From positions 33,728,001 through 33,792,000 of the forward strand of contig OX597840.1 in assembly GCA_951406725.2 (NCBI GenBank): 64,000 bases of DNA, read 5' to 3'. Below the pieces are notes generated by a model. That model was not told the DNA's origin, did no database searches, and saw only the letters and a program-made list of their open reading frames with translations. The position numbers and the translations under genes were made by a program. The DNA is from Octopus vulgaris (taxonomy: Eukaryota). Each line of letters opens with the position of its first letter. Position 1 is the stretch's first letter. Of this stretch, positions 45,151-54,343 are shown piece by piece.

Positions 45151-45329
45151 TCAGACCAGCATACCCTTCTCGATACGGATATACCTATCAAGTATAACAC
45201 CACACAAACAACCCACGAAGGGTCCTGCCCAGTAGACTAAGAGATGCTCCCACATTTCGGTTCCTTTGCATCCAAGCATGTGACCGGTTGCCATAGCAGG
45301 GTTGAAGTACATTCCAGTTAAACTGACCC
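45151..45329 (-). CDS. AQP12: Aquaporin exon carrying the NPA box and last helix, ending in TGA
   Basis: atttcag|GG GTC... gives VSLTGMYFNPAMATGHMLGCKGTEMWEHLLVYWAGPFVGCLCGVILDRYIRIEKGMLV*. Confidence 0.9.
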
Positions 45330-47524
45330 CTGAAATATAAATATGAAAATATATGTTACATATATACAGGGTGTGTAAGATATTTGAGGACAGATTTACG
45401 TTTATAAAAAGACAAATATATAATAACAGATAATATTGAATTTTTCCCTGTAAGTTTGGAATAATATTCCCCCATATTATATAAGAGAAAAAAATCCATC
45501 AGAAAGGAACTCTATCTCTCTTAAAAAAATATCTTTTGATAAGCATAACAAATGCGCAACCGGTAAAAAGAACTTTCACCAAATTAAATACACTCTCCCT
45601 TACTTAAATTATTTTGTCAGCATTTTCTTCATTTCCTTTATATATATATATATATATATATATATATATATATGTGTGTGTGTGTGTGTGTGTGTGTGTG
45701 TGTGTGTGTGTGTGTGTGTGTGTGTGTGTGTGTGTGTGTGTGTGTGTTGGTAAAAACGGTAAGATAACAAAAGAAAGAAAGAGACCTCAATATTATGTAA
45801 ATAGAGGAATATACAATAGCCAAGATAAAACTCTGAGTTTCGGATGCCGAAGTGGAAATTCACAACACCATCTCTTCGGTTATCTGGCCACATATTAATT
45901 GTCACATATTAATTTACAGATATATATAAATATATATATATAATAACAATTTAATAAATAAAACATATGCATACATACATACATACATATATGTACATAC
46001 CTACATCTGTATGTATATATACATGCATATATATATGAGTACAGGACACCACAAAAAACGTAGAACACAACGAGAAACGAAAACATAAAATCAAACAAGG
46101 AAACGGACTTTTTTTAACAACGAAAAAACAGAGTACAAGGACAACCAATACAAGGAACATTCCCCTTCTTCAGCTGCCCCTGTTTCGACTCAATGCGTGT
46201 TTCGAAGGTAAGGGCAGAACACGGCCACGCCGAAGCAGCCCTTCCTGCAAAATGAATTAAATAAATTTTTTTTGCGGAGGGGTAAAAAAGTGACAAGAAC
46301 AGGACGTAAAAGCAATACAAATGAAGAAAAAAACAGTAGTGGCTGTGTGGTAAGTAGCTTGTTTACCAACCACATGGTTCCGCGTTCAGTCCCACTGCGT
46401 GGCATCTTGGGCAAGTGTCTTCTGCTATAGCCCCGGGCCGACCAATGCCTTGTGAGTGGATTTGGTAGACGGAAACTGAAAGAAGCCTGTCATATATATG
46501 TATATATATATATATGTGCGTGTTTGTGTGTCTGTGTTTGTCCTCCTAGCATTGCTTGACAACCGATGCTGGTGTGTTTACGTCCCCGTCACTTAGCGGT
46601 TCGGCAAAAAAGAGACCGATAGAATAAGTACTGGGCTTACAAAGAATAAGTCCCGGGGTCGAGTTGCTCGACTAAAGGCGGTGCTCCAGCATGGCCGCAG
46701 TCAAATGACTGAAACAAGTAAAAGAGAAAAGAGAGAGAAAGAGAGTACAAATAAAGATAAAAACAGTAAAAGACAGGAAACCAACAATAAGGGCTTTTAA
46801 AGGGCTTTTTTAAGGGCCTAGACGGTAGACAACATATATAACAAAAAGAAGAGGAAAAAACGAAGTTGTTGCTCCACCTACCGCCGACAATCATAATTCC
46901 ACCATTGACAGCCTTAATCAATTCATCGATGAACGGCGTCGATGACAGGGACTGCTTGCCCAGATAGGTATCGATAAAAGCTGCCCCCATCTCGACAAGG
47001 AACCCGAGAGCGATAGACGTGACCAAGTCGGTGTCGCAAGAAACCTCGTAGAACCTCACGTGGTGATCTTCAATCATGTCCAGCGACCAGACCAGCTGGG
47101 CCAGTCGGTAGGCAGCGAGACCGCCACAACACTGAAACACAATCTTCAGTAATGCCTTGTCGAATCCAATCTCACGTTTCGTAAATTCGTCCAGCGCCTT
47201 GATAGGGTTTTCTGATGCACCTTCCAGGGTCCTGTTCGAAATAAGAATCTCCAAAACGATGACAAAGAAGAAGATGGTATATCCGTAGTGTTTCAGAACG
47301 AAATTGTTCTCAAAGAAATACGAACACACTTCCATGGTGGCCACAAATTCCACCAAGTAGACCTGAATACTGGCAGGCATGATGAGTTTGGTAAGTTTTC
47401 TGAGAATCAGTCCAAGAGTGATGACGATCAGGAGGTAGACGACAGTTGCCATGTAAGGTTCCAGGTAGTCCGTGTCCGGAACCGTCACCCCCGCCACCAT
47501 CTGGTATATCTGCCGGTAGTTCAT
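45151..47524 (-). CDS. AQP12: Unorthodox aquaporin (AQP11/12 'superaquaporin' class); core of 273 aa from two exons
   Basis: Multiple hydrophobic segments; EFVATMEVC; first box GASENPI; second box TGMYFNPAMATGHMLGC with Cys nine residues after NPA; VYWAGP motif. Confidence 0.9.
45823..45885 (-). ncRNA. Degenerate hammerhead motif in aquaporin intron
   Basis: Minus strand: AGATAA-CCGAAGA-GATG...CATCC-GAAA-CTCAGAG-TT|TTATCT. Confidence 0.45.
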
Positions 47525-47527
47525 TGG
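46882..47527 (-). CDS. AQP12: Aquaporin exon carrying the N-terminal helices and the NPI box
   Basis: Acceptor tctttcag|CCA ATG AAC; donor GGC G|GTAGGT (phase 1). Confidence 0.9.
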
Positions 47528-48902
47528 CTGAAAGATAACAAGGAGAAGTGAAGCAAACGTACATAAATACATATATACATACATACATACATACATACAT
47601 ACATACATACATACATACATACATACATGCATACATACATACATACATACATACATACATACATACATACATACATATATACATATACATATATGCATAC
47701 ATACATGCATACATATATATATATATATATACATACATGCATGCATACATACATACATACATACATACATATACATACATACATACATACATGCATGCAT
47801 ATATACATATATACATACATATATACATACATACATACATATATACACACATAAATACATACATACATACATAATACATGCATACATACATACATGCATA
47901 CCTACATATACATACATACATACCTATATACACACATACATGCATACATGCATACATACATACATACATACATACAAACATACATACATACATGCATACA
48001 TACATACATGCATACATACATACATACATACATACATACATACATACATACATACATACATACATACATACATACATACATACATACATACACACACATG
48101 CGTATATGCATATTCGCAACTCTGGGTTTCACGTTTCCGACTGTTCAAACGATGTACAATCGTTTGAACATTTCGAATCACGGAGCGTAGACTTAGATCG
48201 AAGTTTCAGTTACATACAGAATGTGAACATTTCACTCAAAGGACTCGGTAGATTTTTCTCCGTCTATAAACATAAATTTTTTATAATAAATGTGTATATA
48301 TACATGTCAGTTTGGTCTATGATTATATGTGACTGTGTACATTATATAGGTATGTATACATGTGTGTGTGTGTGTTTGTATAATATAAATAATATATATA
48401 TATATACATGTGTGTGTGTATGCGAAAACGAATGAGTTAAATACGCAAACAACGTGAGAAAATGGGAAACAGGACAAGTAACACAAAGAACGACCCTTCA
48501 TCAGTTGTTGGCTGGCTATCTACTCACCAGACAGCCGAAAACTGACGATGGGTCATGCTTTATGTTACTGGTCTTGTTTTCCACTTGTTTCTCTCGTTGT
48601 TTGCGTATTTAACTCATTCGTTTTCGTATTTCATTTCGTTTACTGTTGGCGACATCCTGAACCCATATATGCATATCTATATATATTGCAAATAAGAAAA
48701 TGGAGGAGAACAATAGGTGGTTCGTCAACTTTTAGACACTATATTATGTAAAGTTATTTATCCATTTACTAAACTGATAATTACAATAATATACATACAT
48801 ATAACATATCATTCTTTACATATAAGATATAAGATATAAAATATATCAATATATAAGGATACCAGTAACTATTCTAAAACATGAATATAAATTGGGAAAA
48901 AT

Positions 48903-49028
48903 ACCTTACAGCTGTTTCAGCCAATAGATAAAAATACCTCATTCTACCTTTATTACTCAAGTGGATTGAAGTAATAGGTTGATGAACATGAGGTACTTGT
49001 ATATATCTTTCTAGGCTTCGTCAGAGAT
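48903..49028 (-). ncRNA. Type I hammerhead ribozyme motif with long stem II
   Basis: Minus strand: ATCT-CTGACGA-AGCC...GGCT-GAAA-CAGCTG-TA|AGGT. Confidence 0.7.
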
Positions 49029-49219
49029 TATATTGAATTTTATATTTTTTATATATTTTGTATTTTATATGAATTAATTTATTTCTGTCTTTTGGTTTAT
49101 GTTTTTCACTGTTTGATTTGCCTAAAAGTGGTTTTATCTCTAATTTAATTTATATATTTATATATATATATAAACACTGCACATAAGACATAGAGAGAAA
49201 ACAGAAGAAAGGATGAGAC

Positions 49220-52947: not shown

Positions 52948-53078
52948 CAGGGTGTCCCCAAAAAATGTATACACATAGTGGTTCGGCAAAAGAGAACAAT
53001 AGAATAAGTACTAGGCTTACAAAGAATAACAAATTTACAATTATTTAAGGTGTGTATACATTTTTTTGGGACACCCTG
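52948..53078. mobile_element. Small Tc1/mariner-type MITE in a (TA)n tract
   Basis: TIRs CAGGGTGTCCCCAAAAAATGTATACAC / GTGTATACATTTTTTTGGGACACCCTG with TA flanks. Confidence 0.75.
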
Positions 53079-53283
53079 TATATATATATATATATATATA
53101 TATATATATATATATATATATATATATATATATATATATATATATATATATATATATATATATATATATATATGTATATATGTGTATATATATATATGTG
53201 TATATATATATTTATGTATATATATATATATATATATATATATATATATATATATATATATATATATATATATATATATTATT

Positions 53284-53506
53284 TTGTATTTCGGAATGGT
53301 CATTTTGCCAGTTTAGCCAATTAAAAACACACGTACTATATATTTGGTGTTATTTTGCTTCAGTGTTATTTATTTTTTTACATTAATCTTAATCTTATTT
53401 CGGCCAGAGTTCTTTCGTCACACTCCTGTGGCCGCATCAGTGGTCCTTTGTTTTCTTCTTCCTTATTTATTGGCTAAACTGGCAAAACGACCGTTCCGAA
53501 ATACAA
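53284..53506. repeat. Inverted-repeat element (about 38-bp arms) with an internal degenerate hammerhead-like motif (53402-53446, minus strand)
   Basis: TTGTATTTCGGAATGGTCATTTTGCCAGTTTAGCCAAT / ATTGGCTAAACTGGCAAAACGACCGTTCCGAAATACAA. Confidence 0.75.
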
Positions 53507-53662
53507 CAATGTCTGTTTCAACACACGACTTCACATAAAAAAATCTTGCACAACAAATATATATATATATATATATATATATATATATATATATATATAT
53601 ATATATATATATATATATATATATGTATATATATATACACAAGCATATACAAGGATAATAAC

Positions 53663-54343
53663 CTCGATTCCAAGCATGTTCAGGGGCGAAACCACTTGGC
53701 TATCTGCTGCAGCTTCGGCAACGTTGTTCATGGTTTCTGTAAGGACATCAGCCGCTGATTCTTCAATGACCCCTTCGAATATTCCTTCAGTAACTGTCTC
53801 AGTGGCGGCTTCTAGCACGGAGTCACTAGCTGCTTCTAGCATTGACTCAGTGGCGGTTTCGAATGCTGACTCGGTTGCTGCTTCCAGGATTGAGTCAGTA
53901 GCGCTTTCGAATGCTGACTCGGTTGCTGCTTCTAGTATTGACTCAGTCGCGGTTTCGAATGCTGAGTCGGTTGCTGCTTCCAGTATTGACTCAGTCGCGG
54001 TTTCGAATGCTGAGTCGGTTGCTGCTTCAAGTATTGACTGAGTAGCGGTTTCGAATGCTGAGTCGGTTGCTGCTTCAAGTATTGACTCAGTAGCGGTTTC
54101 GAATGCTGACTCGGTTGCTGCTTCTAGTATTGACTGAGTAGCGGTTTCGAATGCCGACTCGGTCGCTGCTTCTAACACAGACTCGGCGGCTGACTCCAAT
54201 ATGGTATCGGCTGCGCTCTCTACTATGGAATCGGCCACTGCTTCCACTACAGACTCCGCTGCACCGTTCACTACAGACTCCGTTGCTGCATTCACCACCG
54301 ACTCCGCAGCAGTCTTCACAATGGATTCTGCTGCTTCCTCCAT
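53663..54343 (-). CDS. Acidic octapeptide-repeat coding exon (227 codons); candidate N-terminal extension of the aquaporin
   Basis: GCGATGG start with an in-frame upstream stop at 54437; 24/48-nt repeats with synonymous third-position variation; GAG|GTTATT donor in phase 0 matches the phase-0 aquaporin acceptor. Confidence 0.65.

What the first reader, a model, noticed from the sequence alone, without database searches (positions are those of the whole stretch)
45151..54343. Superaquaporin with a probable 227-aa acidic octapeptide-repeat N-terminal domain
Seen: a 681-nt open frame (54343-53663, minus strand) starts at GCGATGG and ends at GAG|GTTATT in phase 0. The aquaporin exon begins cag|CCA ATG, also phase 0, so splicing gives ...LNMLGIE-PMNYRQIYQM... 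and a protein of about 501 aa. Two other nearby GT sites (boundaries 53696 and 53651) are also phase 0. Known: AQP11/12-class aquaporins are intracellular channels, usually about 270-300 aa with short N-termini. Inference: a lineage-specific isoform with a long, strongly acidic, probably cytosolic repeat arm that could act as a tether, gate or cation-binding module.
Basis: partly seen in the sequence, partly recalled or inferred. Interest (0 to 1): 0.8.

Follow-up and report, generated by a model that had tools for sequence, protein, structure and literature searches.

The report
Cephalopod aquaporin with swappable acidic arm
This octopus water-channel gene splices a 227-residue acidic repeat arm, or one of at least two other upstream exons, onto the same channel body; the arm is found only in cephalopod-clade relatives, is predicted to point into the organelle interior rather than the cytosol, and would likely bind calcium or protons there, right at the mouth of the water pore.

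Summary
Contigs from 4 of 4 runs (four studies) join 53663 to 47527. The spliced 501-aa protein equals an existing O. vulgaris 'aquaporin-11-like' model. Arms of 147-283 aa occur in O. bimaculoides, Argonauta and an unnamed sister clade (probably squids and cuttlefish). All 11 of 203 relatives with an N-extension of 100 aa or more carry this arm, and the cores tested form one cephalopod clade. Two corrections follow. (1) The arm is one of several alternative 5' exons: two other partners appear in the octopus runs, and one unnamed relative has five N-termini on an identical core. (2) 'Probably cytosolic' is likely wrong. [quoted passage not shown] The conserved feature is a 4-residue acid/small/apolar/apolar pattern like the pH-switch peptide GALA. 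Best guess: a luminal Ca2+/H+-binding, conditionally helical arm that specialises one isoform for ion-storing or acidifying organelles. Topology is inferred and function untested. Six literature searches found no description of the arm.

The parts
53663..54343 (-). Coding part of the arm exon: ATG plus 227 aa acidic tetrad/octad repeat arm, ending LNMLGIE at a phase-0 donor
   Evidence: junction; coding constraint
53829..54174 (-). Recently homogenised core of the array (48-nt unit, 7.2 copies, 92% match); O. bimaculoides has 80 aa less arm
54344..54739 (-). Probable 5' UTR of the arm exon; acceptor-like CTTTCAG|G at 54739, a 3-codon uORF at 54708, in-frame stops upstream of the ATG. Start of the exon not tested
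   Evidence: sequence only
47528..53662 (-). GT-AG intron, 6135 nt, removed in spliced contigs
46882..47527 (-). Common exon 2 (aa 228-442 plus 1 nt): internal Met229, short helix 231-239, H0, H1-H5, first motif NPI (N334), loop C Cys391
47402..47458 (-). Predicted extra transmembrane helix H0 (aa 251-269), acidic flank before and RKLTK after
45151..45329 (-). Common exon 3 CDS: second motif NPA-M (no Arg), loop E Cys463, last helix, stop
63924..63951 (-). 3' end of an alternative upstream exon (donor ACA|GTAAGT) spliced straight to exon 2 in run X2. It has an in-frame stop and no ATG in the part seen, so it would give an arm-less 273-aa channel
50827..50856 (-). Probable dead remnant of another alternative first exon (reads KNVLRMNGYE; in-frame stop just upstream, no phase-0 GT directly after)
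   Evidence: best of 127,936 ten-residue windows, score 29.4 against 22.4 for the next; tblastn E about 0.06

Best explanation
This is the octopus AQP11/12-class (super)aquaporin gene, in which alternative upstream exons are spliced onto one channel body, and the form seen in all four runs carries a 227-aa acidic four-residue-repeat arm that is predicted to lie in the organelle lumen, where it would likely act as a low-affinity Ca2+/H+-binding module that folds into amphipathic helix as its charge is neutralised. SHOWN: the splice; several 5' partners; restriction of the arm to the cephalopod clade; net charge -50; period-4 pattern; AQP11-like fold including H0. INFERRED: (1) H0 works as a type I signal-anchor (acidic before, basic after) and pulls the uncleaved, unfolded arm through Sec61 into the lumen (about 65%). 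(2) Like human AQP11 the channel is an intracellular trimer passing water, glycerol and perhaps H2O2, so about 150 carboxylates sit over the luminal mouths. (3) At neutral pH and low Ca2+ the arm is a loose polyanion. Luminal Ca2+ or acidification (ER store, maturing secretory granule or yolk platelet) neutralises it, it turns helical and compacts, and so buffers ions and ties local osmotic state or sorting to the water channel. Arm-less isoforms would serve other compartments or tissues.
For: Splice in 4 of 4 runs. Five N-termini (1, 10, 30, 50, 173 aa) on one identical 273-aa core, four on a second and three lengths on a third. 11 of 203 relatives with an intact N-part have an extension of 100 aa or more, and all 11 are this acidic arm. 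Seven of them were in the tree, within a 9-row clade at 99/99 with Octopus and Argonauta. The AF2 model (no templates) has pLDDT about 85-96 over most of 231-501. Its residues 247-501 align on hAQP11 9-262 (Z 28.3, rmsd 3.1, 250 aligned), while the other 49 listed entries start at 272-280, Z up to 19.2. PMC12857728 states that H0 puts the N-terminus in the ER lumen. H0 is the most hydrophobic 19-mer (KD 2.25); its flanks are -3/-4 before and +1 to +3 after in 13 of 13 molluscan sequences where my pattern located it (4 of 17 not located). PMC2373506 says such flanks give N-lumen orientation and that N-domains over 200 aa can be translocated. The hydrophobicity period is 3.9-4.0 and above shuffles in 7 of 7 arms tested; acid-to-acid spacing is 4 in 50-89% of steps; Glu makes up 82-90% of the acids. 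Luminal acidic domains of junctate and calreticulin bind about 20-30 Ca2+, and calreticulin turns helical on binding (PMC10000884). EALA-repeat GALA goes from coil to helix at acid pH (PMC11720145).
Against: No experiment on topology, ion binding, localisation or protein; no tissue data. Vertebrate AQP12 is phosphorylated by PKC/PKA at N-terminal Ser7, Ser9 or Ser18, which implies a cytosol-facing N-terminus in that paralogue. The AQP11 paper itself cannot conclude that AQP12 has H0, and its topology revises earlier cell-biology results. Arms of the sister clade begin with a basic, Cys-containing cap (5-11 K/R per arm), which looks more like a cytosolic membrane-binding helix and would hinder translocation. 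There is no signal peptide, and 0 of 6 arms tested have an N-glycosylation sequon. The arm is helix-prone (AF2 draws long helices at pLDDT 43), and folding would block translocation. Classical Ca2+ buffers use clustered acids, whereas here acids are spaced by 4. Arm length varies from 147 to 283 aa, which suits a weakly constrained element.
Confidence: 0.42

Rival explanations
1. The arm stays in the cytosol (H0 not spanning, or the long form inserted differently) and works as an amphipathic tether or scaffold, binding a second membrane, lipid droplets or basic proteins.
For: AQP12 N-terminal serines are PKC/PKA targets. The sister-clade arms have a basic N-terminal cap. No signal peptide or sequon; 11-29 S/T-x-x-D/E sites per arm; 11-residue hydrophobic moment 0.37 against 0.20-0.24 in shuffles.
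Against: H0 superposes on the membrane-spanning H0 of hAQP11 and is the strongest hydrophobic segment, with -3/+3 flanks. Seven hydrophobic peaks give opposite-side termini if the C-terminus is cytosolic. Octopod arms have 0-1 basic residues, which suits translocation and is poor for binding anionic cytosolic leaflets.
Confidence: 0.25
2. The arm is luminal and is a natural GALA-like pH switch. When the organelle acidifies it inserts into or remodels membranes or lipoprotein cargo (granule or yolk-platelet contents, intraluminal vesicles), in step with water entry through the channel.
For: Same tetrad grammar as EALA (acid, then A/S/T, then two apolar or small residues), Glu-dominated, mean hydropathy positive (0.19-0.68), unlike ordinary acidic disordered tails. 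AQP12-related channels of animals and plants go to yolk-platelet membranes in frog oocytes.
Against: Apolar positions are mostly A/T/V rather than Leu in every tetrad. With period 4.0 the apolar face drifts round a long helix. The likeness is to a synthetic peptide, by pattern only. No localisation data.
Confidence: 0.13
3. The arm is mainly a sorting, retention or spacer element (or is cleaved off), and its exact chemistry matters little. Alternative first exons mostly give tissue-specific promoters.
For: Length 147-283 aa with lineage-specific units. Many unrelated short N-termini work on the same core. N-terminal and C-terminal signals steer AQP12 traffic.
Against: Tetrad phase, acidity and the LNMxGxE end are kept across the two subclades even though the repeat units were rewritten.
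Confidence: 0.17
4. The repeat ORF is not really translated with the aquaporin (annotation artefact, or initiation mostly at the internal Met229).
For: No protein evidence. An internal Met is conserved in all relatives. The O. vulgaris database model probably derives from this same assembly.
Against: Spliced joint in 4 of 4 runs. Strong start context GCGATGG against weak CCAATGA. Coding constraint. Full-length arm-plus-channel ORFs lie on 1.6-2.5-kb contigs of other species.
Confidence: 0.03

Closest known systems
Human AQP11 (PDB 9VXW; PMC12857728)
   Same: Best sequence match (profile E 3e-26 against 5e-7 for the next) and best structure match (Z 28.3). H0 region, variant first motif, no ar/R Arg, loop C and loop E Cys pair.
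   Different: hAQP11 has about 8 residues before the modelled chain and H0; this protein has 250. First motif is NPI, not NPC. 19% identity.
Bivalve and gastropod aquaporin-11-like proteins (Haliotis, Magallana, Aplysia, Mytilus and others)
   Same: Orthologous core, 44-52% identity, same acidic/basic flanks round H0.
   Different: About 280 aa, beginning at the Met equivalent to Met229; no arm.
Vertebrate AQP12 (PMC13344155)
   Same: Co-orthologous family; intracellular; N-terminus regulates traffic.
   Different: Short N-terminus with cytosolic kinase sites; H0 uncertain; vertebrate-only C-terminal targeting motif.
Junctate, calreticulin C-domain, sarcalumenin (luminal acidic Ca2+ buffers; PMC10000884)
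   Same: Membrane-tethered or luminal polyacidic region; sarcalumenin also has long and short splice forms.
   Different: No homology claimed; none is fused to a channel. Here the acids are evenly spaced in an apolar tetrad repeat. Ca2+ binding untested.
GALA peptide (synthetic EALA repeat; PMC11720145)
   Same: Glu every fourth residue among small apolar residues, with no basic residues.
   Different: GALA is designed, 30 aa and Leu-rich. This arm is natural, 150-280 aa, Ser/Thr/Val-rich and channel-tethered. pH switching untested.
Variable-first-exon genes such as plectin, UGT1A and clustered protocadherins (recalled, not from a call)
   Same: Several alternative 5' exons spliced to a constant body.
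   Different: Here the variable parts are mostly short unrelated peptides plus one long repeat. Separate promoters were not shown.

Membership tests
AQP11/12-class superaquaporin | MIP fold | tested here: met
   Pfam MIP on exon 3 at E 3e-5, 24.4 bits against a cut-off of 25; PF00230 precomputed for the full protein; all 50 listed VIA rows are MIP-family structures
AQP11/12-class superaquaporin | Closer to AQP11 than to orthodox aquaporins or glyceroporins | tested here: met
   E 3e-26 against 5e-7; Z 28.3 against 19.2; TM 0.84 by target
AQP11/12-class superaquaporin | Deviant first NPA, conserved second NPA, no ar/R arginine | tested here: met
   NPI at 334-336; NPA-M at 452-455; hAQP11 has Leu there
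AQP11/12-class superaquaporin | Loop C and loop E cysteine pair | tested here: met
   C391 and C463 at least 90% conserved in 54 sequences, aligned to the hAQP11 loop C and E cysteines. The bond itself was not tested
AQP11/12-class superaquaporin | Intracellular location; water, glycerol or H2O2 permeation | not testable with these tools
   inferred from PMC12857728 and PMC13344155 only
AQP11-type 7-TM topology | Extra N-terminal transmembrane helix H0 | tested here: met
   KD 2.25 at 251-269; helix 251-276 at pLDDT about 84-96; superposes on hAQP11 from residue 9. A prediction, not an experiment
AQP11-type 7-TM topology | N-terminus in the lumen even with a 250-residue N-domain | tested here: inconclusive
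   Flanking charges agree and there is precedent; counter-evidence
AQP11-type 7-TM topology | Trimeric channel | not tested
   the channel core was not folded as an oligomer
Luminal acidic Ca2+ buffers (junctate/calreticulin type; works-like only) | High net negative charge | tested here: met
   net -50 over 227 aa; -19 to -52 in 11 of 11 arms
Luminal acidic Ca2+ buffers (junctate/calreticulin type; works-like only) | High-capacity, low-affinity Ca2+ binding | not testable with these tools
   needs binding assays
Luminal acidic Ca2+ buffers (junctate/calreticulin type; works-like only) | Sequence homology to a known buffer family | tested here: inconclusive
   no Pfam family at cut-off for the arm; low-complexity sequence is a weak test
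GALA-like pH-switch helix (works-like only) | Glu every 4th residue in a small/apolar repeat without basic residues | tested here: met
GALA-like pH-switch helix (works-like only) | Coil-to-helix change and membrane insertion at acid pH | not testable with these tools
   needs CD and liposome assays

The most novel reading that the evidence does not exclude
Coleoid cephalopods evolved a natural, 150-280-residue GALA-like pH/Ca2+ switch and fused it, as a selectable exon and without a signal peptide, to the luminal face of an intracellular water channel. Acidification or Ca2+ loading of an organelle would then fold the arm and directly gate the pore or remodel the organelle's contents or membrane, making it a self-contained organelle osmo-switch.
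Probability: 0.15. Interest if true: 0.85.

Novelty: new variant of a known kind. Interest (0 to 1): 0.56.

Why it matters
Superaquaporins are the least understood aquaporins, and which side their N-terminus faces is in dispute: cryo-EM of AQP11 says lumen, kinase sites in AQP12 imply cytosol. A natural 227-residue N-domain is a built-in topology reporter, and natural arm-less isoforms are built-in controls. If luminal, it is also a rare natural case of an N-domain over 200 residues crossing the ER membrane without a signal peptide. It would also be a channel carrying its own ion buffer or pH sensor, and a cephalopod-specific innovation in organelle water handling. The protein sequences already sit in databases as automatic models; the arm, its pattern and the exon swapping were not found described.

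Tried and rejected
No whole genome is held, so sequence upstream of 64000 could not be searched. The X8 partner exon was not found in the window; its letters would read KGRTTNMNNQ in frame. No RNA holder listed: the run search had no holder on record as RNA; the contigs are taken as RNA only because they skip GT-AG introns. Contigs stop 205-218 nt into the arm exon, inside or near the repeat, so the exon's 5' end and a single full-length octopus transcript were not seen. Three copies of the arm folded as a complex: no answer, score 0.00 in two runs; no evidence either way. AF2 of the arm alone: pLDDT 43, pTM 0.25, long helices, not usable for a fold search. ESM Atlas: no usable feature hit for two arms, structure TM up to 0.30 by query. 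Arm-only protein search: 6 hits among 8000 scored, namely 3 cephalopod-clade proteins and 3 unrelated-looking proteins that I took as composition matches and did not inspect. The arm-less 273-aa octopus proteins and the arm alone are not in the protein collection as exact sequences. A canonical coiled coil (period 3.5-3.67) was rejected: hydrophobicity power there is near 0 in five of seven arms. A beta-solenoid like ice-nucleation octads (recalled) was rejected on composition and the lack of a period-2 hydrophobic pattern. Donors at 53696 and 53651 were not seen in 4 runs. A link to reflectin-driven water flux found no support in the 12 of 39 listed papers (the term also matches 'reflecting'). 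The aquaporin in the O. maya oviducal-gland paper is Drip, not this gene. Our scan's earlier findings: nothing by place, words or sequence.
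Full report
Observation. The minus-strand frame 54343-53663 gives 227 aa with 51 acidic residues and one lysine, in octads. Exon 2 runs 47527-46882 and exon 3 runs 45329-45151. Joined, they give 501 aa identical to database protein P0004, CAI9742238.1 'aquaporin-11-like' of Octopus vulgaris. That record probably comes from this same assembly, so it is not independent. Independent evidence comes from public runs. I laid 4 of the 20 holders (four studies) on exon 2. In 4 of 4, a contig leaves the genome at the acceptor and continues with letters that match 53665-53694 exactly; the two bases between are the AG shared by exon end and acceptor. 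The same runs join exon 2 to exon 3. The runs are only guessed to be RNA, but the removal of two GT-AG introns shows spliced transcripts. The contigs break 205-218 nt into the arm exon, so no single octopus contig spans the whole ORF. Substitutions among the repeat units are biased to third positions and to synonymous changes (10 of 12 and 7 of 12, p=0.019).

The arm is one of several 5' exons. Run X2 has a second branch at the same acceptor that maps to 63924-63951, ending at ACA|GTAAGT (one mismatch at the last letter). It has an in-frame stop and no ATG in the part seen, so it would give a 273-aa channel from Met229. Run X8 has a third branch not found in the window. Contig depths were 1262 against 155 (X2) and 67 against 57 (X8) for arm against other branch; the tool warns these are poor measures. 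X11 and X15 showed only the arm joint. In unnamed relatives the design is plain: one identical 273-aa core carries N-termini of 1, 10, 30, 50 and 173 aa, a second carries 38, 47, 49 and 152 aa, and a third 30, 50 and 173 aa, all joined just before T-MNYRQ. The 47-50-aa type ends L-x-M-A-G-Y-E and the arm ends L-N-M-x-G-x-E, which suggests (inference) that the two exons are old duplicates. The best match in the window to the 50-aa type's end lies at 50856-50827, in the right intron and strand, behind an in-frame stop, and is probably a dead copy.

Distribution. Long acidic arms occur in O. bimaculoides (147 aa), Argonauta hians (275 and 283 aa) and unnamed Logan/JGI proteins (152-275 aa) on contigs of 1.6-2.5 kb, hence spliced. 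Of 225 proteins fetched, 221 hit a core profile and 203 kept its N-part. Of these, 11 have an extension of 100 aa or more and all 11 are this arm; the next longest (88 and 85 aa) are not acidic. In a 34-row tree of the core, 9 rows (7 with the long arm, plus the 324-aa short form and its cluster mates counted by row) form a clade at 99/99: three octopods, and six unnamed rows as sister group. I read the sister group as probably squids and cuttlefish, which would date the arm to before the octopod-decapod split (roughly 270-300 Myr, recalled). The named bivalve and gastropod orthologues are 280-296 aa, and those read have no arm. Nautilus was not seen. The searches miss proteins that share few words, so absence elsewhere is not proven.

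The channel. The best solved relative is human AQP11. The motifs are NPI and NPA-M, with no ar/R arginine and a conserved loop C/loop E cysteine pair. [quoted passage not shown] My template-free model has a confident helix at 251-276. Residues 247-501 superpose on AQP11 9-262 (Z 28.3), while the other 49 listed entries align only from 272-280. H0 is the most hydrophobic of seven peaks, and its flanks are acidic before and basic after in 13 of 13 sequences located (4 of 17 not located). Passages of PMC2373506 say that such flanks give N-lumen orientation and cite translocation of N-domains over 200 aa. The arm has almost no basic residues, no Cys and one Pro. I therefore put luminal at about 65%. 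Against this: AQP12 N-terminal serines are PKC/PKA targets (PMC13344155; abstract, passages, first parts of the Discussion and one Results section read); the AQP11 authors do not extend H0 to AQP12; the sister-clade arms begin with a basic cap; and no arm tested has a sequon (0 of 6).

The arm. The units differ by lineage (8- and 16-mers in Octopus, NG-punctuated 8- and 16-mers in Argonauta, EA-rich tetrads in the sister clade), but the grammar is kept. The hydrophobicity period is 4.00 in five and 3.90-3.92 in two of 7 arms tested (of 11), each above the 95th percentile of 200 shuffles (null on a coarser grid). Acids are spaced by four in 50-89% of steps and are followed by A/S/T and then two apolar or small residues. 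Mean hydropathy is positive, so this is not a typical acidic disordered tail. It is helix-prone but has no confident fold. This is the EALA pattern of GALA, which is coil at neutral pH and amphipathic helix at acid pH (PMC11720145, passages). As a tethered luminal polyanion it also recalls junctate and the calreticulin C-domain, which bind about 20-30 Ca2+ (PMC10000884, passages). Both are likenesses, not homologies.

Mechanism. I commit to a luminal, conditionally helical Ca2+/H+-binding arm on an intracellular water channel, chosen by exon use (0.42). Rivals are a cytosolic tether (0.25), a sorting or spacer element (0.17), a membrane-active pH switch (0.13) and an artefact (0.03). The splice, the exon variety, the clade restriction and the sequence pattern are shown; topology is predicted; function is inferred.

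Novelty. The sequences exist as automatic gene models. Six searches of the held library (listings and abstract starts) and passages of the aquaporin survey 10.1101/2022.07.25.501387 and of PMC8976471 gave no description of the arm or of the exon swapping. The library lacks most subscription papers. I did not see the supplements: the survey's sequence catalogue and the AQP11 paper's alignments could include these proteins. Verdict: new variant of a known kind, interest 0.56.

Noticed in passing
window 63924-63951 (-): Alternative upstream exon spliced to exon 2. The run's last loose letter differs from the window at 63952, so the exon may begin near there or this is a variant. Whether it also splices to the acceptor-like site at 54739 (making the arm a cassette exon) is unknown.
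   Followed up: partly
window 50827-50856 (-): Probable dead remnant of the 47-50-aa alternative first exon seen in the sister clade.
   Followed up: partly
proteins P0007, P0009, P0011, P0193, P0196, P0197, P0202, residues about 1-40: A conserved basic, Cys-containing cap (VVxRTCRKxVKI) precedes the acidic arm in the sister clade and is absent in octopods. It is better conserved than the repeat itself.
   Followed up: no
proteins P0189, P0191 (and probably P0198, P0201): 218-219-aa forms that stop just after the exon-2 end (intron read-through), lacking the second NPA half; probably unspliced transcripts.
   Followed up: no
window 33240-33362 (-): Short non-repetitive frame that recalled (from memory) an exon of presequence protease PITRM1. 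A PDB sequence search did not support this (only a weak PPR hit, E 0.01).
   Followed up: partly
window 16215-16819: 18/27/63-nt satellite open in several frames (Asn-Val-Asp/Asn-Thr-Asp repeats, 185 aa on the minus strand); probably a decayed AAT/AAC microsatellite.
   Followed up: no
window 38111-39322: 173-nt tandem array, 7.0 copies at 98% match.
   Followed up: no
window 33639-35217, 51283-51613, 52099-52476: Tandem copies of 171-191-nt dispersed repeat units, resembling octopus SINE-like elements (label recalled).
   Followed up: no
protein P0187 (Mya arenaria MAR_006432): Begins with a Val run and an Asp run (16 acids in 39 aa), probably a mis-predicted microsatellite exon and unrelated to the cephalopod arm.
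   Followed up: no
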